A program made the translations under genes and the position numbers. 12,227 nt of DNA. Source: a virus (taxonomy: Duplodnaviria; Heunggongvirae; Uroviricota; Caudoviricetes). Location of the stretch: the IMG/VR virus record IMGVR_UViG_2671180903_000014, positions 1 through 12,227 of that record; one strand, 5' to 3'. This document shows, one piece after another, positions 1-11,613 of the stretch (the first letter of the stretch is position 1; the number at the start of each line of letters is the position of its first letter). The notes below the pieces were generated by a model. That model saw only the letters and a program-made list of their open reading frames with translations, searched no databases and was not told the origin of the DNA.

Positions 1-1461
1 ATGAAAAAATTACTGCATCTTTTTTTCCCGCTCTCGCTGCGGGTACGTTTTCTGTTAGCAACGGCAGCAGTAGTATTGGTGCTTTCGCTTGCCTACGGAA
101 TGGTTGCGCTGATCGGTTATAGCGTCAGTTTCGATAAAACCACGTTTCGGCTGTTACGTGGCGAGAGCAATCTGTTCTATACCCTTGCGAAGTGGGAAAA
201 CAATAAGTTGCATGTCGAGTTACCCGAAAATATCGACAAGCAAAGCCCCACCATGACGCTAATTTATGATGAGAACGGGCAGCTTTTATGGGCGCAACGT
301 GACGTGCCCTGGCTGATGAAGATGATCCAGCCTGACTGGCTGAAATCGAATGGTTTTCATGAAATTGAAGCGGATGTTAACGATACCAGCCTCTTGCTGA
401 GTGGAGATCATTCTATACAGCAACAGTTGCAGGAAGTGCGGGAAGATGATGACGACGCGGAGATGACCCACTCGGTGGCGGTAAACGTCTACCCGGCAAC
501 ATCGCGGATGCCAAAGTTAACCATTGTGGTGGTGGATACCATTCCGGTGGAGCTAAAAAGTTCCTATATGGTCTGGAGCTGGTTTATCTATGTGCTCTCA
601 GCCAATCTGCTGTTAGTGATCCCGCTGCTGTGGGTCGCCGCCTGGTGGAGTTTACGCCCCATCGAAGCCCTGGCAAAAGAAGTCCGCGAACTGGAAGAAC
701 ATAACCGCGAATTGCTCAATCCAGCCACAACGCGAGAACTGACCAGTCTGGTACGAAACCTGAACCGACTGTTAAAAAGTGAACGCGAACGTTACGACAA
801 ATATCGTACGACGCTCACCGACCTGACCCATAGTCTGAAAACGCCACTGGCGGTGCTGCAAAGTACGCTGCGTTCTCTGCGTAGTGAGAAGATGAGCGTC
901 AGTGATGCTGAGCCGGTAATGCTGGAGCAAATCAGCCGCATTTCACAGCAAATTGGCTACTACCTGCATCGTGCCAGTATGCGCGGCGGGACATTGCTTA
1001 GCCGCGAGCTGCATCCGGTCGCCCCACTGCTGGACAATCTCACCTCGGCGCTGAACAAAGTGTATCAACGCAAAGGGGTCAATATCTCTCTCGATATTTC
1101 GCCAGAGATCAGCTTTGTCGGTGAGCAGAACGATTTTGTCGAGGTGATGGGCAACGTGCTGGATAATGCCTGTAAATATTGCCTCGAGTTTGTCGAAATA
1201 TCTGCAAGGCAAACAGACGAGCATCTCTATATTGTGGTCGAGGATGATGGCCCCGGTATTCCCTTAAGCAAGCGAGAGGTCATTTTCGACCGTGGTCAAC
1301 GGGTTGATACTTTACGCCCTGGGCAAGGTGTAGGGCTGGCGGTAGCCCGCGAAATCACCGAGCAGTATGAGGGTAAAATCGTCGCCGGAGAGAGCATGCT
1401 GGGCGGTGCGCGGATGGAGGTGATTTTTGGTCGCCAGCATTCTGCGCCGAAAGATGAATAA
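1..1461 (+). CDS. phoQ: Sensor histidine kinase PhoQ of the PhoP/PhoQ two-component system
   Basis: 486-aa ORF with N-terminal transmembrane segment, periplasmic acidic patch EDDDDAE, second transmembrane segment, HAMP region, H-box [12 protein letters not shown] and ATPase motifs (DNACKY, DDGPGI, GQGVGL); matches enterobacterial PhoQ from memory. Confidence 0.95.
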
Positions 1462-1972
1462 ATATGTCCTTTTATCACCACAGCAAGGCAACCAATTGAT
1501 TTAATTAAACAACTCACACTGCAAAAAGTGCTAAAAACAGCAAATTGACTACACCATTAACTACACCGTTCGGTGCACTGTATGAAACAACGTTGAACAA
1601 ATAGACACAAGAAATATACAGGCGGGTAATCTTTCCAGGGGGAAGCGCACCAATTCATGAGGGGCGTTAATGTCGATATGGGGATCCCCATAACGGGGCT
1701 ACCAGATTTTTTTTCCGGTTAACTGTTAATCAGGCTGGTGGGCTTTACCTGTTCGGTAGGTGTTATGATTATCGTAATACCTTTCCCCCAATGGGGTAAA
1801 AGCTCCAACCGTAACGATGTTCGTTATGGTTGCCTTGATGGTCTGAGTGGTCATTTTGACCATTCAGCCAATGACCTTAATCAGAATTTTTCGCTAAAAA
1901 ATGACGTTGGCCACGTCATCCGGAAAGCACAAAATCACGTCGATTTTTAATGAACGGTTAAACCGTCTTTTT

Positions 1973-2007
1973 GTCACGGTGTGTCACTGGTTGTCACTCT
2001 CCGTCAC
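1973..2007. repeat. Four direct copies of (T)GTCAC spaced exactly 10 bp apart
   Basis: GTCAC at 1973, 1983, 1993 and 2003, in non-coding DNA downstream of phoQ; resembles tandem arm-type recombinase sites (lambda Int arm consensus contains AGTCAC) or another phased binding array. Confidence 0.6.
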
Positions 2008-2096
2008 GATTGAGGTGGTGGACATTCTGCCCGACCGCGCATTTTTGCGCTATCGGGAATATCAAACAGTTACCGCGCCGACTTCCTCAAATTGAG

Positions 2097-2239
2097 GTTT
2101 CCGAAAATATCAGCGGGTTAGCGATTAAGCTGACGAGTAATTAAACTGCGAAAATTTCGTAGTTTGTGACTATCTGAAAGATAGTCGGTTGTTCCGGCCT
2201 CAGCCGTTGGCTGTTTCCGAAAATATCAGTAGGTTAGGC
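2097..2239. repeat. Pair of ~26-bp direct repeats (GTTTCCGAAAATATCAG..GGTTAG) 115 bp apart
   Basis: 2097-2124 and 2212-2239 differ at 2-3 positions; palindromes lie between them (GACTATCT-gaa-AGATAGTC at 2169-2187; CCAAAGCTCA-aaaa-TGAGCTTTGG at 2240-2263). Confidence 0.6.
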
Positions 2240-2277
2240 CAAAGCTCAAAAATGAGCTTTGGAACAATATCAACAAG

Positions 2278-2559
2278 TTACCGCCGTAACCGCTCCGGCT
2301 TCTTCCAGTGGTACGTAATTTTCTCCGTTTCCCGATACAGTGCCACGCGGCGATTGTAGGCCAGCATTTCAAGAACGCGGATCCGTATGTTGCGCATATC
2401 CACATCATTAAGCTGGATACCATCACGGCGCATCACCTCAGCAACAACACGCGCATAATTTTCGGCTGTCACGCTGTCCGGCTGCGTGGCCTGTTCGTCA
2501 GTCTGCTGGCTGATTCCACCAGCACGGCGGATTAATCCCAGTATTTCGGCTTCTGTCAT
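2278..2559 (-). CDS. Hypothetical 93-aa protein
   Basis: ATG at 2559 with upstream GGGTG; charged, protein-like composition; the overlapping plus-strand ORF looks like antisense. No family recognised. Confidence 0.4.
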   Translation of the reverse strand: MTEAEILGLIRRAGGISQQTDEQATQPDSVTAENYARVVAEVMRRDGIQLNDVDMRNIRIRVLEMLAYNRRVALYRETEKITYHWKKPERLRR

Positions 2560-2592
2560 TGTGCACCCATCGTTCTGATTGTCTGGTGTCGT

Positions 2593-2795
2593 CGGGTCCT
2601 TCCTGGAATTATGGACCCGTTACGGGGCGGCGACCTCGCGGTTTTTATCTGTTTATGAAAATTTTCCGGCAAAAGTCAGATCCGTTCTTCTTCTCTGTAA
2701 CAGACTGTTTAACAATGAAAATATTAAAAAAAGAAAGGATCTGACACGAGGCATTTTAGCCAGAAAATGCCATTATCAGATCCTTTCTCATTTTT
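2593..2795 (+). other. Lambda-type cos site 'cos-A' (cosQ, cosN, cosB) in plus orientation
   Basis: GGGTCCTTCC..GTTACG|GGGCGGCGACCT|CGCGGTTTTT..TTATGAAAATTTTCCGG..CCGTTCTTCTTC closely follows the lambda right-end/left-end junction as recalled; the 12-nt cohesive-end sequence is at 2625-2636. Three R-site-like repeats GATCC(G/T)TTCT follow (2681-2695 plus, 2730-2745 inverted, 2777-2789 plus), with an A/T-rich IHF-like stretch between the first two. Confidence 0.8.
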
Positions 2796-2815
2796 GTTCA
2801 ATAATTGCGCGTCTG

Positions 2816-3358
2816 TTACTCGCCTTTCTTCTGTAGCAACTTTTCCGGTACGTTTCCGGTTGTTTCTTTCAAGTAATCAGCCAGTATCTGTGGGAGGTTG
2901 TCGGCAACTCTGGCACTGGCATTACAGGCTTTAACCACTTCCCTTTTAAGCCTATCCAGCATGGCGGGGGTAATCTGTGGGAAGCTCCTTTGCATAGTAA
3001 GCGGGAGGCTGTCCATGATTGATGAAATCTGACTCGCCAGCTTTGAAAGCGCGTACAGGCAAAACTCAGTATCAATCACGTCACCGCGATCGCGCTCGTT
3101 TTTAAGTTCCTGCGCCTCCGCCTGTGCTGTCAGTAATCTGATCCTGACTCGTAAGAGTTCATCATCATCAATATCGCCTTTGTCGTTTGTAAGCTGGCTA
3201 ATTGCATTGTTAACCCTATTGTCTATCACGCTGGCAACATCATAAAACGCCTCACGGCCTTTACGTTCAACGGGAGTCACTCCCCACTTGTCGAACGCTG
3301 TCGCACTTACACGGCAGCTTTTCGCCATGTTTTTTTTGTTCATCAGGTGCGATTTCAT
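2816..3358 (-). CDS. Terminase small subunit, lambda Nu1-like
   Basis: Residues LLTAQAEAQELKNERDRGDVIDTEFCLYALSKLASQISSIMDSLPLTMQRSFP align with lambda Nu1 (LTRAQADAQELKNARDSAEVVETAFCTFVLSRIAGEIASILDGLPLSVQRRFP); N-terminus NKK..W..G..PV matches the Nu1 DNA-binding region. Start may be ATG 3358 or ATG 3343. Confidence 0.85.
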   Translation of the reverse strand: MKSHLMNKKNMAKSCRVSATAFDKWGVTPVERKGREAFYDVASVIDNRVNNAISQLTNDKGDIDDDELLRVRIRLLTAQAEAQELKNERDRGDVIDTEFCLYALSKLASQISSIMDSLPLTMQRSFPQITPAMLDRLKREVVKACNASARVADNLPQILADYLKETTGNVPEKLLQKKGE

Positions 3359-3399
3359 TAATACACCAACTTAATTACTGCTTCAGGTTGGTGTATTGT

Positions 3400-3534
3400 T
3401 TGCATCTTTCCCTTTTTATTCATAAAGATAGATCAAACAACGAAACCACCACCCCCCCCCTGAAAAGGCTCATAAATAGCGAAAAACCGCTAGGTCGCCG
3501 CCCCGTAACGGGCCATAATTCCAGGAAGGACCCG
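3400..3534 (-). other. Second lambda-type cos site 'cos-B' (cosQ, cosN, degenerate cosB) in minus orientation
   Basis: Minus strand reads GGGTCCTTCCTGGAATTATGGCCCGTTACG|GGGCGGCGACCT|AGCGGTTTTTCGCTATTTATGA and then diverges, including a G9 run; cohesive-end sequence at 3492-3503. The 53-bp stretch 3482-3534 is an inverted repeat of 2593-2646 with one mismatch and one 1-bp indel. Confidence 0.75.
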
Positions 3535-3535
3535 T

Positions 3536-3557
3536 AAAAAAGCCGGATTTCTCCGGC
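3536..3557 (-). terminator. Rho-independent terminator after the 137-aa gene
   Basis: Minus strand GCCGGAGAAATCCGGC hairpin followed by TTTTTT; 6 bp past the stop of the 137-aa ORF. Confidence 0.7.
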
Positions 3558-3563
3558 CTTGTC

Positions 3564-3977
3564 TCAGATGGTTTTCAGTATGCGATCGATGTCGCCGTCA
3601 TCGCCCTGGTTTCTGCCATCGTATGCCATGCCAGCTGATACGGCTTGCGGGCTGTGCATGTCCATAAAGTTTTCAAAGGCTGCGGTAAGTTCCGGCGCAA
3701 CCTTCGGACGTTCCTGCTCTATGGTCATGCTAAGGATGCTTTTAGCCGTACCAACATCGATACAAGGCACGTTTGCCATTGCACGCAACAGCGGCTGATA
3801 GTCTTTATGCTCATGAAGCGCCATAATCGCATCAGCGCGCGGCTTGTCCTGCTCTTCCAGTTTGTTTAGTTGATATACGGCCTCATAGGTTGATAAACCT
3901 CTGTCAGCCATTGCCCGCGCTTCGACTTTAAATTTACTCGCCAGCGGTAGCGTCATGATGCTTTCATTCGTTGCCAT
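3564..3977 (-). CDS. Hypothetical 137-aa acidic protein, last gene of the capsid operon
   Basis: Strong RBS (AGGGGGA) before ATG 3977; 12 bp after the gpD-like stop; followed by a terminator. No family recognised; not lambda FI or W by recalled sequence. Confidence 0.55.
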   Translation of the reverse strand: MATNESIMTLPLASKFKVEARAMADRGLSTYEAVYQLNKLEEQDKPRADAIMALHEHKDYQPLLRAMANVPCIDVGTAKSILSMTIEQERPKVAPELTAAFENFMDMHSPQAVSAGMAYDGRNQGDDGDIDRILKTI

Positions 3978-3989
3978 CGTTCCCCCTGC

Positions 3990-4325
3990 TTATCGGGCCA
4001 GCGGCTGAACGGATACGCCGGAACCCGCAAAGGCGGCGCATTTTTTCGCATCGGTGTCGACGCTCTCAGGCCAGTTAACGGCGGCAATATTGAATATCCC
4101 CGTCTTGTAACACTGTGCTGATTTCTGCTTTGACGTGCCCACAGGGTACGAGGTCAGATAAACAGCCTTGCCAGATTCCTGACCATCCCACGGCTTAAAC
4201 TCGCCATTGTCTGCCAGCATCAGCGGGGTAAATTCCTGAATAACGCCAGCATCAGCGGCAAAATGTACCAACGTCGTGGATACCTGCTGACTGCCTGCAA
4301 ATAACTCAATGTATGGAGTGTCCAT
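3990..4325 (-). CDS. Head decoration protein, lambda gpD family
   Basis: 111 aa; TPLML, WDG, YKTGIF, WPE and AFAG motifs align with lambda gpD (TPLML..WDG..YKSGTF..WPE..AFAG); RBS GGGGGGA. Confidence 0.85.
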   Translation of the reverse strand: MDTPYIELFAGSQQVSTTLVHFAADAGVIQEFTPLMLADNGEFKPWDGQESGKAVYLTSYPVGTSKQKSAQCYKTGIFNIAAVNWPESVDTDAKKCAAFAGSGVSVQPLAR

Positions 4326-4337
4326 AGAATCCCCCCG

Positions 4338-5393
4338 TTAACCAATTTTGACGGTAACAAATTTGCGAATATCTGCCGGTACCGGCTGCGGTGCACTGTG
4401 TGTCTGCACGTACTCAATCGCCGGATCGCCGTCCTCAATCCAGTTTTTCGGGTAAAACATGTTTTGTGTTGCGCCCGTTCTTACCGCTTCCTGATCCATT
4501 ATCGCACCATAGGCCACCAGCCCTTTATTGTTGGTGTTACCCAGGACCAGCAAATCAGGCTCAAGGAAATATTTTTCGGTACCATCGCTGTCAGTGTATT
4601 TGCCGGAATAGACGATAAGGGCCAGATCACCAAGATAGCCTTTAAAGCTCACCACTTCGCCCAGGTTTTTACAGGCCAGTTCGGCGGCGGATTCTGAACC
4701 ACGGGAAAGATCGTACAGCTCACGGAATTTTTTAAAGCTGCCTAATGTGCGCCATACCTCAGCGCCCATAATCATGACGTTTGCGGGGCAACCAGCCTGA
4801 TCAGCATAAAGCTCGATGTCATAGATTGGGTCGTGCATGTCTTTATCCTGCTCGGACCATTTTTTACCCTTGGCCTGCTCTATGATGCAGTTTTCCGGTA
4901 TTTTCCAGTCGATTTCATAGCGTTCTATGCCTTCGCCCTCAATGATGTTTTTTCCGGTCGTTACCGCATTCACCGCCAGCCATTCCACGCGTGCCTTAAT
5001 GGCGTTTATCTGGCGGCGCATGTTGCCAGTAATCAGGCGCATACGGCGATAGGTAGGGTCGTTAAGCTGTGCCGGATCTTCTCCAGCCATGCGCATGATG
5101 GTTTTCGTTGGATCGATTTCGTGCTTTGGCTTCATGTAGCCAGGTTTGATTGTGCTGGTTTCGTACCCTTTATCGCGCTGAACCTGGCTACCCACCATAG
5201 GCGAACAAAACGCCGACATGGTGACTTCTTCAATGTCCAGGGTATCCAGCATGATGTTTTGCGTGCTGAATGTCGCCACGTTCGGGAAAAACAGCGTGGT
5301 AAACAGAGGGCTGAATTTAAAATCCGCAATATCCCCGCGATTCAGGTACATGAAAAGCTGGTTAGTGTTAAGTGCCGTTGCTTTGCCTGCCAT
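4338..5393 (-). CDS. Major capsid protein, lambda gpE family
   Basis: 351 aa; collinear with lambda gpE (FKF.PLF..LFF, PGY.KPKHE, DP.YRR.R, RDK..DP..DIE.YA, YKG..GD.A.VYSG, VLGNT, YPKNW, GDPA.E); RBS GGGGGTGA. Confidence 0.9.
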   Translation of the reverse strand: MAGKATALNTNQLFMYLNRGDIADFKFSPLFTTLFFPNVATFSTQNIMLDTLDIEEVTMSAFCSPMVGSQVQRDKGYETSTIKPGYMKPKHEIDPTKTIMRMAGEDPAQLNDPTYRRMRLITGNMRRQINAIKARVEWLAVNAVTTGKNIIEGEGIERYEIDWKIPENCIIEQAKGKKWSEQDKDMHDPIYDIELYADQAGCPANVMIMGAEVWRTLGSFKKFRELYDLSRGSESAAELACKNLGEVVSFKGYLGDLALIVYSGKYTDSDGTEKYFLEPDLLVLGNTNNKGLVAYGAIMDQEAVRTGATQNMFYPKNWIEDGDPAIEYVQTHSAPQPVPADIRKFVTVKIG

Positions 5394-5599
5394 TATTCAC
5401 CCCCATAATTTTTATGCATCCCAAGCGCCGCAAGTAAATAAGAGCGTACAAGTGAACCTATCGACGGCTCCGGCGTCATCAGCGGATCCAGTCCAGCCGC
5501 AACGCCAGCTTCATAGTTTTTTTTGTGGCGCTGCTTGAGCACCTCCACGATTTCGGGGCTTATGTACACCGAAACACCGCCTTTTTTCTCTTCAGCCAT
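5393..5599 (-). CDS. Hypothetical 68-aa protein, first gene of the capsid operon
   Basis: ATG at 5599 preceded by AAGAGGAA; its stop overlaps the capsid start codon (TAATG), suggesting translational coupling. No family recognised. Confidence 0.45.
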   Translation of the reverse strand: MAEEKKGGVSVYISPEIVEVLKQRHKKNYEAGVAAGLDPLMTPEPSIGSLVRSYLLAALGMHKNYGGE

Positions 5600-5633
5600 A
5601 GTAAGAAATTCCTCTTCGACTAAAAAAATCATA

Positions 5634-5684
5634 ACTGGATGTTTATCCAGTCCTGATTATAATCAGAATTGCATTTTATGCAAT
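5634..5684 (-). promoter_or_regulatory. Sigma70-like promoter overlapped by three adjacent palindromic operators
   Basis: Minus-strand -35 TTGCAT (5683-5678), 16-bp spacer, -10 TATAAT (5661-5656). Palindromes: ACTGGAT-gttt-ATCCAGT (5634-5651), CTGATTATAATCAG (5653-5666), ATTGCAT-ttt-ATGCAAT (5668-5684). Confidence 0.55.
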
Positions 5685-5764
5685 GATATTGAGTTATGTT
5701 GCAAATTATGAAATGATTATCCCGATCACGAACGCCAGTGCATCCAAAAACCTCATATGCAAAA

Positions 5765-5830
5765 GCCCGATAAGAACCCTCTGACCTTATCGGGCTTTTT
5801 TTGGGCGCAAAAAAGCCGGATTGCTCCGGC
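5765..5830. terminator. Tandem terminators between the 74-aa gene and the capsid promoter
   Basis: Hairpin GCCCGATAAG..CTTATCGGGC with T7 on the plus side and A4 on the other (5765-5802), then minus-strand GCCGGAGCAATCCGGC plus T6 (5809-5830). Confidence 0.65.
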
Positions 5831-5850
5831 TATGTGTGCTGTGTGCTGGC

Positions 5851-6075
5851 TCAGTCTCTGATCTCTTTCAGAAATTCTATCAATGCATCTATCTGTTCAG
5901 GATTTACCGCCAGCATTTCACCGGATAGAGCACATCTCACAAAACCATGCTGATCCTTTTCAATCAGTGCGCCCGTCTCCAGGAATGCGCGGTAATCATT
6001 GATGCTCATCGTCTCCATGTTGTCAGCATGGTATTTATCACGCTGTTTTAATATCTCATCAAATTTCATCGGCAT
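5851..6075 (-). CDS. Hypothetical 74-aa protein, monocistronic between terminators
   Basis: ATG at 6075 preceded by AGAGGAAAAA; terminators on both sides. No family recognised; only one Cys, so not an Ogr/Delta zinc finger. Confidence 0.5.
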   Translation of the reverse strand: MPMKFDEILKQRDKYHADNMETMSINDYRAFLETGALIEKDQHGFVRCALSGEMLAVNPEQIDALIEFLKEIRD

Positions 6076-6171
6076 TGTTTTTTTCCTCTGTTGTGTCTGT
6101 TTGTTTCAGATAGTAACTATGCCTGACCGTGACGAAAACCCGGTAATGCGCCATACCGTTTCAACTGGTGC

Positions 6172-6194
6172 AAAAAAAGCCGGATTTCTCCGGC
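6172..6194 (-). terminator. Rho-independent terminator after the PerC-like gene
   Basis: Minus strand GCCGGAGAAATCCGGC followed by T7; near-identical to the terminators at 3536-3557 and 5809-5830. Confidence 0.7.
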
Positions 6195-6201
6195 TGTTTG
6201 A

Positions 6202-6474
6202 TTAGCTGTCCTGGTAATTGCGCCATATTTCATCACCAGCACCATCTATACCCATTTCGGCATAAGTGCGATCGACTGCCTTTTTCAGGTCTCCGAAATT
6301 ATCCGGCGGCTCCGGTGCCCTCTGTGCCTTCCTTGAACATTCCAGCCGTCGCATCGTGATGTGATGCCGTTCCTTGTCTGTCTCCACCAGCTGCATGACT
6401 TCACCCCATCGCGCCGCCGCCCTCCGGTAAAAGCCTTTCGCCTCCAGTTCCTCCGCTATGCGGTCATGTACCAT
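6202..6474 (-). CDS. Small PerC-family-like regulator (about 90 aa)
   Basis: Start taken at ATG 6474 (MVHDRIAEELEAKGFYRRAAARWGEVM), 11 nt after the SSB stop with GGGGGTG as RBS; the A..LE..G.YRRAA.RW motif resembles PerC-family proteins from memory. The longer 130-aa ORF call would overlap SSB. Confidence 0.45.
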   Translation of the reverse strand: MVHDRIAEELEAKGFYRRAAARWGEVMQLVETDKERHHITMRRLECSRKAQRAPEPPDNFGDLKKAVDRTYAEMGIDGAGDEIWRNYQDS

Positions 6475-6484
6475 CGTCACCCCC

Positions 6485-6895
6485 TCAGAACGAAATATCA
6501 TCACCGTAAGAGTCATCGCCTCCCGCTGGTGGCTGATTACCCTGTGTGCCTGTGGTTTTGCGTCTGTTCCCGCCTGGACGTGCCGCGCGGGCACTGATTA
6601 CGCTGTCTGCGATAACCTGCCAGCCCTGCCGCGTTTCTCCGTTCTGTCCGGTCCACTGGCTTACCTGCATCGTGCCGGATACGCTGGCAACATCGCCTTT
6701 TTGATGTTTAGCCAGGAAGTCGGCCTGTTTGCCAAATGCGATGACCGATAACCATAACGTCGCCTGTCCGTCCTGTGCCTGGCTGCATGGCAAAGATACC
6801 GCCATACGCGCCAGCGTCATCGGTGTGCCCTTGCTGGTCTGTTTTACCTGCGGGTCGTCCACCAGCCGCCCGTAAGCGGCTATCTGTGCCGTCAT
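6485..6895 (-). CDS. Single-stranded DNA-binding protein, SSB-like
   Basis: 136 aa; OB-fold-like N-terminal region, Gly/Pro/Gln-rich linker and acidic C-terminal tip GDDISF (compare E. coli SSB DDDIPF). Confidence 0.65.
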   Translation of the reverse strand: MTAQIAAYGRLVDDPQVKQTSKGTPMTLARMAVSLPCSQAQDGQATLWLSVIAFGKQADFLAKHQKGDVASVSGTMQVSQWTGQNGETRQGWQVIADSVISARAARPGGNRRKTTGTQGNQPPAGGDDSYGDDISF

Positions 6896-7143
6896 AATTC
6901 CACCTCTCCGGTTTTAACGTTGATGGTTGTTACCTGTTCCGCTTCGGCAATCTCCCGTTCTGTCAGCGTGGCAAAGTTTGCCGCCGCCGTGGTCATGAAT
7001 GCGCTTATCAGGTCGGGATGTTCCTTCGCGTATCCTTCCCGCGTGTGGCGGTCTATCGTTCTGATTGCCACCTTTAAGGTGTGCTCAGTCATGTCTAACG
7101 CTTTATATTTTGGCTCTGTTCTGTCTCTGCGTTTTTGGGTCAT
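6892..7143 (-). CDS. Hypothetical small protein between the origin and ssb
   Basis: The longest ORF begins at a GTG (7173) inside the iteron array; ATG 7143 or ATG 7092 are more plausible starts. Stop overlaps the ssb start (ATGA). Confidence 0.35.
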   Translation of the reverse strand: MTQKRRDRTEPKYKALDMTEHTLKVAIRTIDRHTREGYAKEHPDLISAFMTTAAANFATLTEREIAEAEQVTTINVKTGEVEL

Positions 7144-7149
7144 TTCTCG

Positions 7150-7350
7150 CAACCTCTCACTTTTTCGCCTCACTTTTTCAAGCGTCTCACTTCGTCGCAG
7201 TTGGGATTTTCGGTTTTTCTATGTGTGTGTTTCATAAGTATTTTTTTACCCCTCACTTTTGAGGATGTATACAGGTCGAAAAGTGAGGGAGAGCGGGCTA
7301 ATTTTGGCCCTCTTTCTATCCCCCTCGCTTTTGCTCCTCACTTTTATAGC
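7150..7350. repeat. Iteron array with a central A/T-rich stretch; candidate replication origin
   Basis: Seven copies of CCTCAC(T/G)TTT (7156, 7169, 7186, 7250, 7323, 7337 direct; 7279 inverted) flanking an A/T-rich stretch at 7201-7248, immediately 3' of the rep gene. Confidence 0.6.
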
Positions 7351-8743
7351 GGCGCTACATCATCCCCATCGATACGAATAACCCCATCTTTTTCCAGCTT
7401 GTACAGCCAGCGCCGGAAGTTTTTCATTTCATACCCCAGCTTTTTCATGTCATCACGTAACAGCGGGATCGTGCACTTGTCGCCGTTCTGTGTGCGTGAA
7501 CGGATGCACCCCCATAGCGCGGTATGGTTTTCCGTCTTGTTCCCTGCCTCCTCGATGCGCTCCAGTTCAACAGGAGGGCGCGGATCATCCACCACCACCA
7601 GCGACGTGATTAATTCACCGTCAGCGTCGGTAAAAAGCTCCACCACGCGTAAGTCATATGCGGCTTCTTTGAGTTCCTCCGCGTCCTTCATTTTGGTGCA
7701 TGAGATAACCAGCGCTTCGCTTCCTGCGTCCTCCCTGCGTATCCGGTATTCAGCATCCAGCGAAGCACGAAATGCACTGGAACCGCGCGCGCCTTTCGTC
7801 TCATCCTTGCCGGAATGGTGAACCACCAGCACCGTGGCCCCTGTGCGTCGTTTCAGTTCGTCACAACCACGGATAAACGCCCCATATCACGGGAATCATT
7901 TTCATCATTCCCACCAAAGCAACGCGCCAGCGTATCCAGAATAATCATGCGTACAGGTTTACCCGTTTCCCGCTCCACCTGACGGGCAGCGATAACCATT
8001 TCATCAACATCAAGCGGGGCAGCCGGAAAGATGGGGCGGTTTACCAGATACAGATTTTTCACCTGCTCATCGTGCACAACCTCCCAGGCTTTTACACGAC
8101 GCGGAACACCTATACCGCCTTCACCAACCACATAGAGAACCGCACCATGTGCAACCCTGCGGCCTCCCCACTGGCGACCAGTGGCAACATGGCACGCCCA
8201 CGATCCGGCAAGGAATGATTTATAGGACCCGCTAGCCCCGTATATGCTGCATAGCGATACCGCCGGAATAATCCCCTTAACCACGTAATCCAGTTGCGTG
8301 TCGTATCCGGTAGATCCAACGCTCATCGGTAGCGTGGTTTTTCGCTGGTGGTTTTTTTCTTCCGCCGGCTCTTTCCCGCGCACCCGTTCCAGGTATTCGC
8401 GCCAGTTCTCCCGCATATGGCTGTGCATCCCTTCGGGGTAATAATTCGCATCAGTTACACCCGCCGCCGCCAGCTTGTGCGCAATGGCATTAATATTTGA
8501 TGGCCTGATGTGGCCTGCCTTGTACAGCCGGACACAATAGCGCCCCTCGTCGATGATTCTCAGGTCTGCCAGTTCATCCAGTTGATCATCAGCCAGCACA
8601 ACGGGAGGCACATTATCGCCAGCCAGTCGCCCGTCCTGTTCCTGCCACTGTTTCGCATGTGCCCAGGCATCACTACCCGCAAAAATAATGACTTCGGTCA
8701 TCTTGTCGTAAGGCTGTTTTTTTAAGTTCGGTGCGCTTTTCAT
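7344..8743 (-). pseudogene. RepA-like AAA ATPase (RecA-fold replication helicase) split by a frameshift
   Basis: The upstream ORF (8743-7853) ends ..ILDTLARCFGGNDENDSRDMG; the downstream ORF continues in another frame with AFIRGCDELKRRTGATVLVVHHSGKDETKG. Joined, they give the typical DEN..M......L....G..VL.VHH..K motif. The frames meet in the C4/G4 run at 7880-7883; one extra G would restore a ~470-aa protein. Confidence 0.75.
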
Positions 8744-8761
8744 TTCTTGCCCCTGAATCCG

Positions 8762-9208
8762 TTAAAATCTGGCCTGAACTGCCGGAGGCGTAGGCCATTC
8801 AATATCTGGCGCACTGGAGGTATCAACCAGCTCCAGTGCATCCAGATAATCCAGCCACAAATTATATTGCGCCAGTTCCTCACCTTTCAGACGACCAATA
8901 GCGGCTTTACCGGGCCATTGCTTACTGTTCATGTATTCGTTGGCCTGGTTAATTAGTAGCTGTCTTTCTGATTCAGTAATTTCAATAAGCTCTTCATGCG
9001 TGGGTGGAGGAATATCTGCCCACGCAGGCAGCCCATCATCTCCGGCAATACGGATTTTTCCTTGTGGCGGTTCAGCCATAAACTCACTGATAATATTTTG
9101 ATTTACTTCCTTAGCGTCTGATAAATCCCATCCCTCTGATTTATATTTATCAATCATATCCACAGGGAAAAAAGCATTATGCCTTGCGCTATAAACATAT
9201 TCGTTCAT
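8762..9208 (-). CDS. Tail fibre assembly protein (Tfa)
   Basis: N-terminus MNEYVYSARHNAFFP and C-terminus ..VDTSSAPDIEWPTPP match Tfa proteins (lambda Tfa ends ..VDTSTAPDIEWP); RBS AGGGTGA before ATG 9208. The longest ORF starts at a GTG (9217). Confidence 0.85.
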   Translation of the reverse strand: MNEYVYSARHNAFFPVDMIDKYKSEGWDLSDAKEVNQNIISEFMAEPPQGKIRIAGDDGLPAWADIPPPTHEELIEITESERQLLINQANEYMNSKQWPGKAAIGRLKGEELAQYNLWLDYLDALELVDTSSAPDIEWPTPPAVQARF

Positions 9209-9228
9209 ATAAATCACCCTGAATAAAA

Positions 9229-9642
9229 TTACTCACCAACAGCCCACCAACTGTAATTCATCGATACCGTGTCGCTGGTTGATGACGTTCTGTAAGCAGA
9301 ATTAAAGCCGGTTAACGTTGGGCCTTCTGCAGTCATCACGAACCCTCGCCCAGCGCCTAAAGGCGCACCGCCATCACCAGAATGAGTAAGCATGGCGCAG
9401 TCCGCTTTTTTGGGGAAAGGGATGCTGAATGTAATTCTCATTGTTTGCGTCGATAATGTCGGCGTAACCGCACCACGACCATATTGCAGGATTTTCCCGT
9501 TGGGTAATTTCATCCATCCATCACCACTGGCAAAAGAGGCCATGTCCGGTATCTGATTTTCCCCTGTCCCCACATCCCGTTTTGCCGCTTCTCCCAAACC
9601 AACGTTTATGAAAATGCAGAAATAACGAGCAAATGGCATCAT
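9229..9642 (-). pseudogene. Tail-fibre C-terminal variable segment without its constant N-terminal part (alternate cassette of an invertible segment)
   Basis: Lies between the crossover site and tfa, reading away from pin, as for the alternate Sv' cassette of the Mu G segment and the e14 P segment; no tail-fibre N-terminal domain upstream. Confidence 0.5.
9589..9614. other. Candidate Pin crossover site (pix-like)
   Basis: TTCTCCCAAACCAACGTTTATGAAAA matches the recalled hixL site TTCTTGAAAACCAAGGTTTTTGATAA at 20 of 26 positions; sits just upstream of pin inside the tail-fibre fragment. Confidence 0.55.
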
Positions 9643-9668
9643 TCCTGCTTTTGTCAGGGGGATCTACC

Positions 9669-10223
9669 ATGCTTATTGGCTATGTACGCGTATCAACAAA
9701 TGACCAGAACACAGATCTACAACGTAATGCGCTGAACTGTGCAGGATGCGAGCTGATTTTTGAAGACAAGATAAGCGGTACAAAGTCCGAAAGGCCGGGA
9801 CTGAAAAAACTGCTCAGGACATTATCGGCAGGTGACACGCTGGTGGTCTGGAAACTGGACCGGCTGGGGCGCAGTATGCGGCATCTTGTCGTGCTGGTGG
9901 AGGAGTTGCGCGAACGAGGCATCAACTTTCGTAGTCTGACGGATTCAATTGATACCAGTACCCCAATGGGGCGCTTTTTCTTTCATGTGATGGGTGCCCT
10001 GGCTGAAATGGAGCGTGAACTGATTGTTGAAAGAACAAAAGCTGGACTGGAAGCTGCTCGCGCACAGGGACGAATTGGTGGACGTCGTCCCAAACTTACA
10101 CCAGAACAATGGGAACAGGCCGGACGATTAATTGCATCAGGAGTTCCTCGCCAGAAGGTGGCGATTATCTATGATGTTGGTGTGTCAACTTTGTATAAGA
10201 GGTTTCCTGCAGGGGATAAATAA
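9669..10223 (+). CDS. pin: Serine DNA invertase Pin (Hin/Gin/Cin family)
   Basis: MLIGYVRVSTNDQNTDLQRNAL..VVWKLDRLGRS..GINFRSLTDSIDTS.PMGRFFFHVMGALAEMERELI..GRIGGR with C-terminal HTH; RBS AGGGGGA before ATG 9669. The listed ORF start at 9633 is an upstream extension. Confidence 0.92.
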   Translation: MLIGYVRVSTNDQNTDLQRNALNCAGCELIFEDKISGTKSERPGLKKLLRTLSAGDTLVVWKLDRLGRSMRHLVVLVEELRERGINFRSLTDSIDTSTPMGRFFFHVMGALAEMERELIVERTKAGLEAARAQGRIGGRRPKLTPEQWEQAGRLIASGVPRQKVAIIYDVGVSTLYKRFPAGDK

Positions 10224-10329
10224 AGTTAAAGACACTTTGTGTACAAAAGAAAGTAAAACAACAGCAACTTGTTGCAATTTTATCAATAAAAGTAGTATTG
10301 TCGTGAAAAATTGATTAAAGATTAATATT

Positions 10330-11163
10330 ATGCATGTTTTTGATAATAATGGAATTGAACTGAAAGCTGAGTGTTCGATAGGTGAAGAGGATGGTGTTTA
10401 TGGTCTAATCCTTGAGTCGTGGGGGCCGGGTGACAGAAACAAAGATTACAATATCGCTCTTGATTATATCATTGAACGGTTGGTTGATTCTGGTGTATCC
10501 CAAGTCGTAGTATATCTGGCGTCATCATCAGTCAGAAAACATATGCATTCTTTGGATGAAAGAAAAATCCATCCTGGTGAATATTTTACTTTGATTGGTA
10601 ATAGCCCCCGCGAGATACGCTTGAAGATGTGTGGTTATCAGGCTTATTTTAGTCGTACGGGGAGAAAGGAAATTCCTTCCGGCAATAGAACGAAACGAAT
10701 ATTGATAAATGTTCCAGGTATTTATAGTGACAGTTTTTGGGCGTCTATAATACGTGGAGAACTATCAGAGCTTTCACAGCCTACAGATGATGAATCGCTT
10801 CTGAATATGAGGGTTAGTAAATTAATTAAGAAAACGTTGGGTCAACCCGAGGGCTCCAGGAAACCAGTTGAGGTAGAAAGACTACAAAAAGTTTATGTCC
10901 GAGACCCGATGGTAAAAGCTTGGATTTTACAGCAAAGTAAAGGTATATGTGAAAACTGTGGTAAAAATGCTCCGTTTTATTTAAATGATGGAAACCCATA
11001 TTTGGAAGTGCATCATGTAATTCCCCTGTCTTCAGGTGGTGCTGATACAACAGATAACTGTGTTGCCCTTTGTCCGAATTGTCATAGAGAATTGCACTAT
11101 AGTAAAAATGCAAAAGAACTAATCGAGATGCTTTACGTTAATATAAACCGATTACAGAAATAA
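10330..11163 (+). CDS. mcrA: Type IV modification-dependent restriction endonuclease McrA (HNH)
   Basis: 277 aa; matches e14 McrA from memory, with C-terminal HNH motif HHVIPLSSGG..NCVALCPNCH; A/T-rich context typical of acquired DNA. Confidence 0.92.
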   Translation: MHVFDNNGIELKAECSIGEEDGVYGLILESWGPGDRNKDYNIALDYIIERLVDSGVSQVVVYLASSSVRKHMHSLDERKIHPGEYFTLIGNSPREIRLKMCGYQAYFSRTGRKEIPSGNRTKRILINVPGIYSDSFWASIIRGELSELSQPTDDESLLNMRVSKLIKKTLGQPEGSRKPVEVERLQKVYVRDPMVKAWILQQSKGICENCGKNAPFYLNDGNPYLEVHHVIPLSSGGADTTDNCVALCPNCHRELHYSKNAKELIEMLYVNINRLQK

Positions 11164-11397
11164 AATTGTTTATTAAAGTCACATTTAAGACGTAATACCC
11201 TACAGGGTAAAAATTTTCTCTGATCTTAACTTCTGCAAATGTTAACTGCTATTTTTATGCTAAAAATGGTTATCAAAACTCAAAAACACATGTTTATAAT
11301 CAATGAGTTATAGAAATGCTAAGGGCTAATGAGTTATATGCAAATTAGTAAAATTATGTTGCTATCTCAAATAGTTACGATTTAGTCATCTAACTAA

Positions 11398-11562
11398 TGC
11401 TGCGCCATATGGGCTGGACTGAAGCCGCAGACCTGATTGTTAAAGGTATGGAAGGCGCAATCAACGCCAAGACCGTAACCTATGACTTCGAACGTCTGAT
11501 GGAAGGCGCTAAACTGCTGAAATGTTCAGAGTTTGGTGACGCGATCATCAAAAATATGTAAT
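11398..11562 (+). pseudogene. icdC: Displaced 3' end of icd (isocitrate dehydrogenase), marking the e14-type attR
   Basis: In-frame translation [53 protein letters not shown] is the ICD C-terminus; no upstream icd body. Confidence 0.85.
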
Positions 11563-11584
11563 TACCACATGTGTTAAATATTAT

Positions 11585-11613
11585 AACGGGCGTATAACAC
11601 GCCCGTTGTTTTT
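11585..11613 (+). terminator. Rho-independent terminator after the icd remnant
   Basis: AACGGGCGT-ataac-ACGCCCGTT hairpin followed by GTTTTT, 23 bp past the stop. Confidence 0.6.

What the first reader, a model, noticed from the sequence alone, without database searches (positions are those of the whole stretch)
8744..9669. Truncated Pin inversion module fused head-to-tail to the Rep gene
Only one tail-fibre cassette (variable fragment plus tfa) and one pix-like site are present next to pin; the opposing cassette and second crossover site are missing, and the Rep gene starts 18 bp after the tfa stop. The switch is therefore frozen, and the 8744-8761 interval is probably a recombination joint between an e14-type element and the satellite-like module.
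Basis: partly seen in the sequence, partly recalled or inferred. Interest (0 to 1): 0.5.

Follow-up and report, generated by a model that had tools for sequence, protein, structure and literature searches.

The report
Broken prophage switch joined to satellite remnant
This is a rearrangement scar in an E. coli chromosome where half of the e14 prophage's tail-fibre inversion switch has been welded to a crippled phage satellite, leaving the switch almost certainly unable to flip; it is an ordinary strain-specific genome scar, not a new system.

Summary
A tail-fibre assembly gene (8762-9208, -), a tail-fibre C-terminal fragment (9229-9642, -) and one exact 26-bp pix site (9589-9614) lie beside an intact pinE (9669-10223). 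There is no second site or cassette in the window. The Rep ATG (8743) lies 18 nt after the tfa stop.

The true joint is at 8765/8766/8767, not in 8744-8761. Bases 1-8765 are 99% identical to the EcCICFT073-type satellite (PICI) at roxA-phoQ in O55/O157 strains. Bases 8767-11612 are 99% identical to the right end of an e14-type prophage. One base (8766) matches neither, and there is no microhomology.

phoQ and pinE are on the same strand here but on opposite strands in normal genomes, 55.7 kb apart in strain JB2. The joint is therefore best read as one end of a large inversion, not a simple truncation. The missing cassette and pixL may still exist far away, in direct orientation.

The satellite half is also dead: no integrase end, one att copy, and a frameshifted Rep.

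None of 5,426 complete E. coli genomes carries the joint. Two draft assemblies link Rep to pin across a gap.

Verdict: real, correctly noticed, ordinary. Interest 0.18.

The parts
1..1461 (+). phoQ (chromosomal flank). Its orientation relative to pinE reveals the inversion.
   Evidence: annotated phoQ, 98.3% identical to CB9615. It is on the same strand as pinE here, but on the opposite strand in JB2.
1548..1568 (+). phoQ-proximal att repeat core of the satellite (PICI). It is the only copy in the window.
   Evidence: a 75-nt direct repeat flanks the 11-kb element in CB9615; a single match in the window.
2278..8765 (-). Retained half of an EcCICFT073-type PICI. It holds a 93-aa ORF, a Nu1-like small terminase (2816-3358), a 137-aa ORF, head decoration (3990-4325), a capsid E homologue (4338-5393), PerC, SSB (6485-6895) and Rep.
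   Evidence: It is 99.0% identical to the CB9615 element and 92-94% identical to the CFT073 element at the same roxA-phoQ site.
7344..8743 (-). RepA-family helicase pseudogene, split into 296-aa and 162-aa ORFs by a 1-nt deletion (G5->G4, about 7880-7883).
   Evidence: alignment to the intact 466-aa CB9615 gene. The same frameshift occurs in normal-context copies L005, L006, L029 and L030.
8744..8765 (-). Native satellite DNA: the last 22 nt of the DUF4222 gene, including the Rep ribosome-binding site. It ends inside what was the palindrome AACCATGGTT.
   Evidence: alignment.
8765..8767 (.). Recombination joint. 8765 is the last satellite base, 8766 (A) matches neither parent, and 8767 is the first e14 base.
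   Evidence: The draft contig L004 stops matching at exactly 8765.
8762..9208 (-). Tail-fibre assembly gene (tfa) of the pin-proximal cassette. Its native TGA was destroyed by the joint, giving one extra codon (F) and then TAA.
   Evidence: The native protein ends ...PPAVQAR; here it ends ...PPAVQARF. The 148-aa product is absent from the 15-billion-protein collection.
9229..9642 (-). Pin-proximal StfE-type ORF: a 17-aa leader encoded outside and across pix, plus the tail-fibre C-terminal (Gp53-like_C) tip. This is the promoter-distal cassette of the switch.
   Evidence: The identical protein elsewhere always has tfa-tfa-stf neighbours.
9589..9614 (+). The only pix crossover site (pin-proximal).
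9669..10223 (+). pinE serine DNA invertase, intact.
   Evidence: Resolvase + HTH_7; DNA invertase phrog_125; 180/184 identical to K-12 PinE.
10330..11561 (+). mcrA (10330-11163) and icdC (11397-11561), the displaced icd 3' fragment. Together they form the right end of e14 at its icd attachment site.

Best explanation
The region is a non-functional scar. It is most likely one end-point of a chromosomal inversion of roughly 50 kb, whose two breaks fell in two neighbouring mobile elements.

One break was 22 nt upstream of the Rep start codon of an EcCICFT073-type satellite (PICI) integrated between roxA and phoQ. The other was in the stop codon of the pin-proximal tfa gene, in the middle of the invertible P segment of an e14-type prophage integrated in icd. 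The ends were joined without homology, with a single filler base.

Consequences:
- Next to pinE there remains only the promoter-distal half of the switch (tfa, the stf C-terminal cassette and one pix site). With no inverted partner site nearby, Pin cannot flip it, so the pin-proximal StfE-type ORF is locked in one form.
- The other half (pixL, the constant stf N-terminal part, the second cassette) was either carried about 50 kb away and turned into direct orientation, or later deleted.
- The satellite is immobilised as well. Its integrase and regulatory half and one att copy are gone from this side, and its Rep gene already carried a frameshift.

Shown: the identity of both halves, the exact joint, the lack of homology, the single pix site, the inverted orientation relative to standard genomes, and that the arrangement is derived and rare.

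Inferred: that a single inversion (rather than an inversion followed by a deletion) made the joint, and that the switch is inactive.
For: - Window 1-8765 is 99.0% identical to the CB9615 phoQ+PICI locus. Window 8767-11612 is 98.98% identical to the e14-type right end of strain MEI2A-0323. Base 8766 is unmatched and no sequence is shared at the joint.
- In strain JB2, which carries both elements, the two halves lie on opposite strands with break-equivalent points 55.7 kb apart (H13, H40, gene map). CB9615 likewise has ycgX and phoQ on the same strand, whereas the window has them on opposite strands.
- Intact e14-type loci have two inverted pix sites and two opposed cassettes. The window has one of each.
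- DUF4222 precedes the replicase in all homologous PICIs seen, at several integration sites.
- No complete E. coli genome of 5,426 spans the joint.
- Two independent draft assemblies, 99.96-100% identical to the window, link Rep to pin. One contig stops matching at exactly 8765.
- Published work shows that removing either inverted repeat locks the e14 P segment (PMC12529663, read).
Against: - The reciprocal junction was not found. The predicted DUF4222 chimeras are not in the protein collection, and no odd-length DUF4222 homologue turned up.
- The junction 30-40-mers are absent from the GTDB representatives, IMG/VR and JGI metagenomes.
- The rest of the source genome could not be reached, so an inversion followed by deletion, or a more complex history, cannot be separated from a single inversion.
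- The only sequence that actually reads through Rep|tfa is the window itself. The two drafts have an N or a 231-N gap there.
Confidence: 0.7

Rival explanations
1. Assembly artefact. The tfa-stf cassette is a repeat shared with other prophages, and the window's path Rep -> cassette -> pix-pin is a mis-join or a wrongly filled gap.
For: - The sister drafts have a single N (L004) or 231 Ns (L031) exactly where the 822-bp cassette sits.
- Contigs carrying the identical stf fragment typically break at pix.
- The joint and the 148-aa tfa product are found nowhere else.
Against: - There is no shared sequence at 8765/8767 that could cause a repeat-induced mis-join.
- The L004 contig ends at exactly 8765 instead of running on into DUF4222, as normal copies do.
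- Two assemblies independently scaffold Rep next to pin, which is impossible in the standard 55-kb-apart, opposite-strand layout.
Confidence: 0.12
2. Pin itself made the rearrangement by acting on a quasi-crossover site in the satellite. This would be followed by an aberrant repair or deletion that removed the hybrid site and the first cassette.
For: The satellite-side break lies inside a perfect palindrome, AACCATGGTT. AACCNNGGTT is the symmetric core of Hin/Gin/Cin/Pin sites. It occurs once in the 11-kb PICI and twice in 26.5 kb of L001, and in L003 its only occurrence is pixL.
Against: - The e14-side break (the tfa stop codon) has no pix-like sequence, and the joint carries no hybrid site.
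- Scored over the whole 26 bp, the candidate site is unexceptional: 13/24, with 27 positions in the PICI scoring higher and 65 in all scoring 13.
- The predicted quasi-site x pixL hybrid junctions are absent from 5,426 complete genomes.
- The motif was chosen after seeing the break.
Confidence: 0.05
3. Simple deletion between two adjacent elements removed one cassette, pixL and the satellite's left half, with no inversion.
For: Only half of each element is present, and the two halves abut.
Against: - In the standard backbone the two retained halves are on opposite strands, with purB-icd between them. A deletion cannot put phoQ and pinE on the same strand.
- phoP and purB continue beyond phoQ in the sister contig.
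Confidence: 0.03
4. An ancestral or adaptive module: the satellite acquired a tfa/stf/pin tail-fibre module as cargo.
For: Both ORFs flanking the joint are kept whole, with tfa gaining one codon and the Rep RBS and ATG retained.
Against: - All relatives have DUF4222 upstream of rep and no tail genes.
- pin-mcrA-icdC is in its native chromosomal e14 position.
- Rep is a pseudogene, and the integrase end and one att copy are absent.
Confidence: 0.02

Closest known systems
P-segment inversion system of the E. coli K-12 cryptic prophage e14 (PinE; stfP/tfaP and tfaE/stfE cassettes; 1797-bp segment)
   Same: - pinE is 98% identical.
- The pin-proximal crossover site is identical.
- The right-end context pinE-mcrA-icdC-ycgX is the same.
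- The pin-proximal ORF has the same leader (MMPFA.YF.IFINVGLGE) fused to a Gp53-like tail-fibre tip.
   Different: - Only one of the two inverted sites and one of the two cassettes are present.
- The constant stf N-terminal gene is absent.
- The cassette alleles differ from K-12: the stf tip is 31% identical and the tfa 54% identical. They match the intact e14-type prophage of strain MEI2A-0323 instead.
Engineered locked e14 switches (delta-stfP, delta-stfE, delta-pinE) in Kirigo et al. 2025, NAR, PMC12529663
   Same: Loss of one inverted repeat prevents inversion. The pin-proximal StfE/StfE2-type ORF is the product whose form the switch controls.
   Different: - Here the lock arose naturally, through a rearrangement.
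- Whether this StfE-type allele blocks any phage is untested.
- pinE is intact.
EcCICFT073, the prototype Gram-negative phage-inducible chromosomal island (Fillol-Salom et al. 2018, PMC6092414)
   Same: - Same integration site (roxA-phoQ) and same gene order: DUF4222, replicase, SSB, PerC, capsid homologue, head decoration, 137-aa and 93-aa ORFs.
- 92-94% nucleotide identity over the morphogenesis and SSB/PerC modules.
- The paper notes capsid and decoration homologues c1499/c1500.
   Different: - The replicase is a RepA-type helicase (AAA_25) instead of a D5_N primase, and it is frameshifted.
- The small-terminase-like gene is Nu1-like.
- The integrase/regulatory half and one att copy are missing from this locus.
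Capsid-forming PICIs (EcCIEDL933; bioRxiv 10.1101/2022.09.08.507074)
   Same: A satellite that carries capsid genes.
   Different: The paper describes cf-PICIs as about 15.4 kb and as encoding all the proteins needed to make capsids. The element here has only capsid, decoration and Nu1-like genes, so it is not filed as a cf-PICI.

Membership tests
Hin/Gin/Cin/Pin-type invertible tail-fibre switch (e14 P segment) | Serine DNA invertase gene adjacent to the segment | tested here: met
   Resolvase + HTH_7; phrog_125 DNA invertase; 98% identical to K-12 PinE, with the N-terminal catalytic region (MLIGYVRVSTNDQ) intact.
Hin/Gin/Cin/Pin-type invertible tail-fibre switch (e14 P segment) | Two 26-bp crossover sites in inverted orientation flanking the segment | tested here: not met
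   One exact site at 9589-9614 and nothing else within 9 mismatches in 12.2 kb. Intact loci show two sites 1.89 kb apart.
Hin/Gin/Cin/Pin-type invertible tail-fibre switch (e14 P segment) | Two opposed cassettes (stf C-terminus + tfa) and a constant stf N-terminal gene outside the segment | tested here: not met
   Only tfa (8762-9208) and the stf tip (9229-9642) are present. The position of the second tfa is occupied by the satellite's Rep.
Hin/Gin/Cin/Pin-type invertible tail-fibre switch (e14 P segment) | Fis-dependent recombinational enhancer within the 5' part of the invertase gene | not tested
   Not examined directly. The pin gene lies in a stretch 97.6% identical to K-12, so the enhancer is presumably retained (inference).
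Hin/Gin/Cin/Pin-type invertible tail-fibre switch (e14 P segment) | Both orientations are present in a population | not testable with these tools
   Needs reads or PCR from the isolate.
e14-type prophage integrated in icd | Right end pinE-mcrA followed by the displaced icd 3' fragment (icdC) and ycgX | tested here: met
   Window 9579-11612 is 97.6% identical to K-12 (L002) and 8767-11612 is 99.0% identical to L003. icdC lies at 11397-11561.
e14-type prophage integrated in icd | Left end (intE/xisE) joined to a functional icd | not testable with these tools
   This lies outside the window. The sister contig could be followed only as far as purB.
EcCICFT073-type PICI | Integrase (and alpA-type regulator) at one end, flanked by att direct repeats | tested here: not met
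   There is no integrase in the window and only one att copy (1548-1568), whereas CB9615 and CFT073 have both.
EcCICFT073-type PICI | Own replication initiator | tested here: inconclusive
   The gene is present but frameshifted after codon 287 of 466. Function was not tested.
EcCICFT073-type PICI | Conserved morphogenesis/packaging block (capsid E homologue, decoration, small-terminase-like) at the roxA-phoQ site | tested here: met
   Pfam Phage_cap_E, HDPD and Phage_Nu1; 92-94% nucleotide identity to the CFT073 element.

The most novel reading that the evidence does not exclude
The joint is the footprint of an aberrant reaction by the Pin invertase at a quasi-crossover site in the satellite: the AACCATGGTT palindrome in which the break falls. 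On this reading, a prophage-encoded serine invertase drove a roughly 50-kb chromosomal inversion that welded a PICI to a prophage. As a by-product, it locked an StfE-type, potentially phage-adsorption-blocking, ORF in one state.
Probability: 0.05. Interest if true: 0.5.

Novelty: already known. Interest (0 to 1): 0.18.

Why it matters
As it stands, the value is mainly for annotation:
- The tfa/stf/pin genes here should not be read as a working phase-variable switch.
- The capsid/terminase/Rep genes should not be read as a mobilisable satellite.
- The locus marks a lineage-specific inversion of the phoPQ-purB-icd region, which is useful as a strain marker and as a warning for short-read assemblies.

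Two points give it some minor wider interest. First, it is a natural example of how two unrelated mobile elements about 50 kb apart can disable each other through a single rearrangement. Second, the e14 pin-proximal StfE-type product was recently reported to block phage T2 adsorption (PMC12529663). A naturally locked allele could therefore be compared with switching strains.

Tried and rejected
- **Recovering the source genome or the reciprocal junction.** Exact look-ups of the tfa product failed. The junction 32-39-mers are absent from the GTDB representatives, IMG/VR and JGI metagenomes. The DUF4222 3' 30-mer is absent from the GTDB representatives. A homology search with DUF4222 returned no chimeric-length protein, and the 'partial' hits were N-terminally cut contig-end fragments. 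Three predicted chimeric DUF4222 products are not in the collection.
- **Walking along the sister contig.** The phoQ and 93-aa-ORF look-ups returned only common, unrelated contexts.
- **Pin quasi-site hypothesis.** The core palindrome is rare, but the whole-site score is ordinary and no hybrid junctions exist in 5,426 genomes. It is kept only as a low-probability reading.
- **Homologous recombination between the DUF4222 or PerC genes carried by both elements.** Rejected: in JB2 these genes are in direct orientation, which would give a deletion, and the joint is not in them.
- **cf-PICI identity of the satellite.** Rejected on gene content.
- **Literature searches for a name for the O157 element.** The SpLE2 searches were uninformative.

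Full report
**What is in the window.**
The 12.2-kb window is E. coli chromosome. From left to right it holds the following (ORFs; Pfam/PHROG):
- phoQ (1-1461, +).
- A block of minus-strand genes typical of a phage satellite: a 93-aa ORF, a Nu1-like small terminase (2816-3358), a 137-aa ORF, a head-decoration D homologue (3990-4325), a major-capsid E homologue (4338-5393), PerC, SSB (6485-6895) and a RepA-type helicase (7344-8743).
- A tail-fibre assembly gene (8762-9208, -).
- A Gp53-like tail-fibre C-terminal fragment (9229-9642, -).
- pinE (9669-10223, +), mcrA (10330-11163, +) and the displaced icd fragment icdC (11397-11561).
- ymgL and the start of ycgX.

**Checking the observation.**
- The tfa stop codon is at 8762-8764 and the Rep ATG at 8743-8741. 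This leaves 18 nt between two co-directional genes, with no terminator-like site.
- A 26-bp site, TTCTCCCAAACCAACGTTTATGAAAA, at 9589-9614 is identical to the pin-proximal crossover site of K-12 e14. It is the only such site in the window, even allowing 9 mismatches.
- Intact e14-type loci (K-12, MEI2A-0323, JB2) have a second, inverted site about 1.9 kb away inside the constant tail-fibre gene, and a second tfa/stf cassette.
- PinE is intact and 98% identical to the K-12 protein.

**Where the joint really is.**
- Window 1-8765 aligns to the phoQ-plus-island locus of O55:H7 CB9615. The island part is 99.0% identical.
- Window 8767-11612 aligns at 98.98% to the right end of the e14-type prophage of strain MEI2A-0323.
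- Base-by-base, the satellite sequence ends at 8765 and the e14 sequence starts at 8767. Base 8766 (A) matches neither parent, and the parents share no sequence there.
It is the last 22 nt of the DUF4222 gene, which in all relatives overlaps the replicase start, and it carries the Rep ribosome-binding site.
- The break on the e14 side destroyed the tfa TGA. The ORF now reads one extra codon (F) before a TAA supplied by the satellite.

**Identity of the two partners.**
The right-hand partner is the right end of an e14-type prophage in its normal chromosomal place (pinE-mcrA-icdC-ycgX).

The left-hand partner is a PICI of the EcCICFT073 type:
- CFT073 carries the same gene order at the same roxA-phoQ site.
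- It is 92-94% identical at the nucleotide level across the morphogenesis and SSB/PerC modules.
- The original description of EcCICFT073 mentions its capsid and decoration homologues (PMC6092414).
- Relatives at other integration sites keep the same order, always with DUF4222 immediately upstream of the replicase.

So tfa-Rep adjacency is derived, not ancestral.

**It is an inversion end-point, not a plain truncation.**
- In strain JB2, which has both elements, the PICI half of the window lies at 3,159,974-3,168,523 on the plus strand (H13). The e14 half lies at 3,108,564-3,112,824 on the minus strand (H40).
- Between them lie the rest of a roughly 43-kb e14-type prophage and the genes from icd to phoP (icd, rluE, nudJ, mnmA, hflD, purB, phoP). 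The two break-equivalent points are 55.7 kb apart.
- CB9615 shows the same relative orientation of ycgX and phoQ.
- In the window, phoQ and pinE are on the same strand. Inverting the segment between the two breaks reproduces the window exactly. A deletion cannot.
- The simplest history is one inversion with two non-homologous breaks. An inversion followed by a trimming deletion is equally compatible with what can be seen.
- Under a single inversion, the constant stf gene, pixL and the other cassette would now lie next to the satellite's DUF4222-integrase half near roxA. pixL would be turned into direct orientation relative to the retained site.

**Is it real?**
- No complete E. coli genome among 5,426 spans the joint.
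- The junction string is absent from the GTDB representatives, IMG/VR and JGI metagenomes.
- The 148-aa tfa product is not in a 15-billion-protein collection.
- However, two draft assemblies (GCA_001283345.2 and GCA_001286665.1), 99.96-100% identical to the window on both sides, place the frameshifted Rep next to pinE.
In the second, a 231-N gap cuts into both genes.
- A break at exactly 8765, instead of continuation into DUF4222 as in normal copies (L005, L006, L007, L029, L030), supports a real discontinuity there.
- The interior (the 822-bp cassette) is resolved only in the window. I therefore leave about 12% for an assembly problem.

**State of the two elements.**
The switch lacks its second site, its second cassette and the expressed constant tail-fibre gene. 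What remains is the promoter-distal cassette.
- The pin-proximal ORF (9229-9642) has the same short leader as K-12 StfE, encoded outside and across pix. It is fused to a different tail-fibre tip, 31% identical to the K-12 version.
- Published experiments show that removing either inverted repeat locks the e14 P segment. They also show that the pin-proximal chimeric product StfE2 blocks T2 adsorption (PMC12529663).
- By analogy, this allele is locked. Whether it has any activity is unknown.

The satellite is also disabled.
- Only the phoQ-proximal att copy is present, and the integrase/regulatory half is not on this side.
- Rep has a 1-nt deletion (G5 to G4) that truncates it after residue 287 of 466.
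- The same frameshift is present in normal-context copies, so it predates the rearrangement.

**An unexplained detail.**
The satellite-side break falls inside a perfect 10-bp palindrome, AACCATGGTT. AACCNNGGTT is the symmetric core of Hin-family crossover sites. It occurs once in the 11-kb island, and in the e14-type locus L003 its only occurrence is pixL. This suggested Pin action at a quasi-site. Three tests argue against it:
- The e14-side break and the joint have no pix-like sequence.
- The candidate's whole-site score is ordinary. 27 positions in the island score higher.
- The predicted hybrid junctions are absent from all 5,426 complete genomes.

I keep this only as a 5% reading. The motif was chosen after seeing the break.

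**Comparison and verdict.**
Both partners are known elements (e14 with its Pin/P-segment switch, and an EcCICFT073-type PICI). The feature is a strain-specific rearrangement scar between them.
- As a switch, it fails two defining features that were tested here: two inverted sites and two cassettes. It should be annotated as a remnant.
The joint is 4-6 nt from where they placed it. The event was an inversion rather than a simple loss. 'Missing' applies to the window and not necessarily to the genome.
- Novelty: already known kind. Interest: low (0.18).

Noticed in passing
window 7878-7884 (Rep, minus strand): A 1-nt deletion in a G run (G5->G4) splits the RepA helicase into 296-aa and 162-aa ORFs. 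The identical frameshift occurs in several other assemblies and metagenome contigs where the island is otherwise normal, so it is a circulating defective allele.
   Followed up: yes
window 11566-11612: About 0.8 kb containing iraM and ymgK is absent relative to K-12, MEI2A-0323 and JB2, with a 47-nt stretch matching both flanks. Other E. coli contigs also show ycgX-ymgL next to icd without iraM, so it looks like a common deletion variant.
   Followed up: partly
window 3537-3560, 5810-5833, 6174-6197: Three near-identical copies of a GC hairpin followed, on the coding (minus) strand, by a T run (GCCGGAGAAATCCGGCTTTTTT). They look like reused intrinsic terminators after three satellite genes.
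   Followed up: no
window 1868-2265: About 400 bp between phoQ and the satellite's 93-aa ORF is only partly present in the CB9615 copy of the island (184 bp there). It is present in the closest relatives (L004, L006). Its content was not analysed.
   Followed up: no
L001 17549-17558 (parental satellite), equivalent to window 8764-8765 plus lost bases: The break lies within the perfect palindrome AACCATGGTT, which resembles the core of Hin-family crossover sites. The whole-site score is ordinary, and no hybrid junctions were found in 5,426 genomes.
   Followed up: yes
L004 9978 (GCA_001283345.2) and L031 2217-2447 (GCA_001286665.1): Public short-read drafts of the same lineage have a single N or 231 Ns exactly where the 822-bp tfa/stf cassette lies. 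Either the cassette is a collapsed repeat in those assemblies or it is deleted in those isolates.
   Followed up: partly
L037-L046, L048 (related islands): The same PICI family sits at several chromosomal sites (roxA-phoQ, next to clpS, next to the ccm/nap genes, and others). The morphogenesis block is conserved, but the replicases are interchangeable (RepA-type AAA_25 helicase versus D5_N/DUF5906 primase), as are the small-terminase-like genes.
   Followed up: partly
L049 33068-34669 versus window 6202-6594 and the DUF4222 region: The e14-type prophage and the PICI both carry PerC-family and DUF4222 genes, in direct orientation in the standard layout. Recombination between them would delete purB-icd rather than invert it, so they are not the cause of this joint.
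   Followed up: partly
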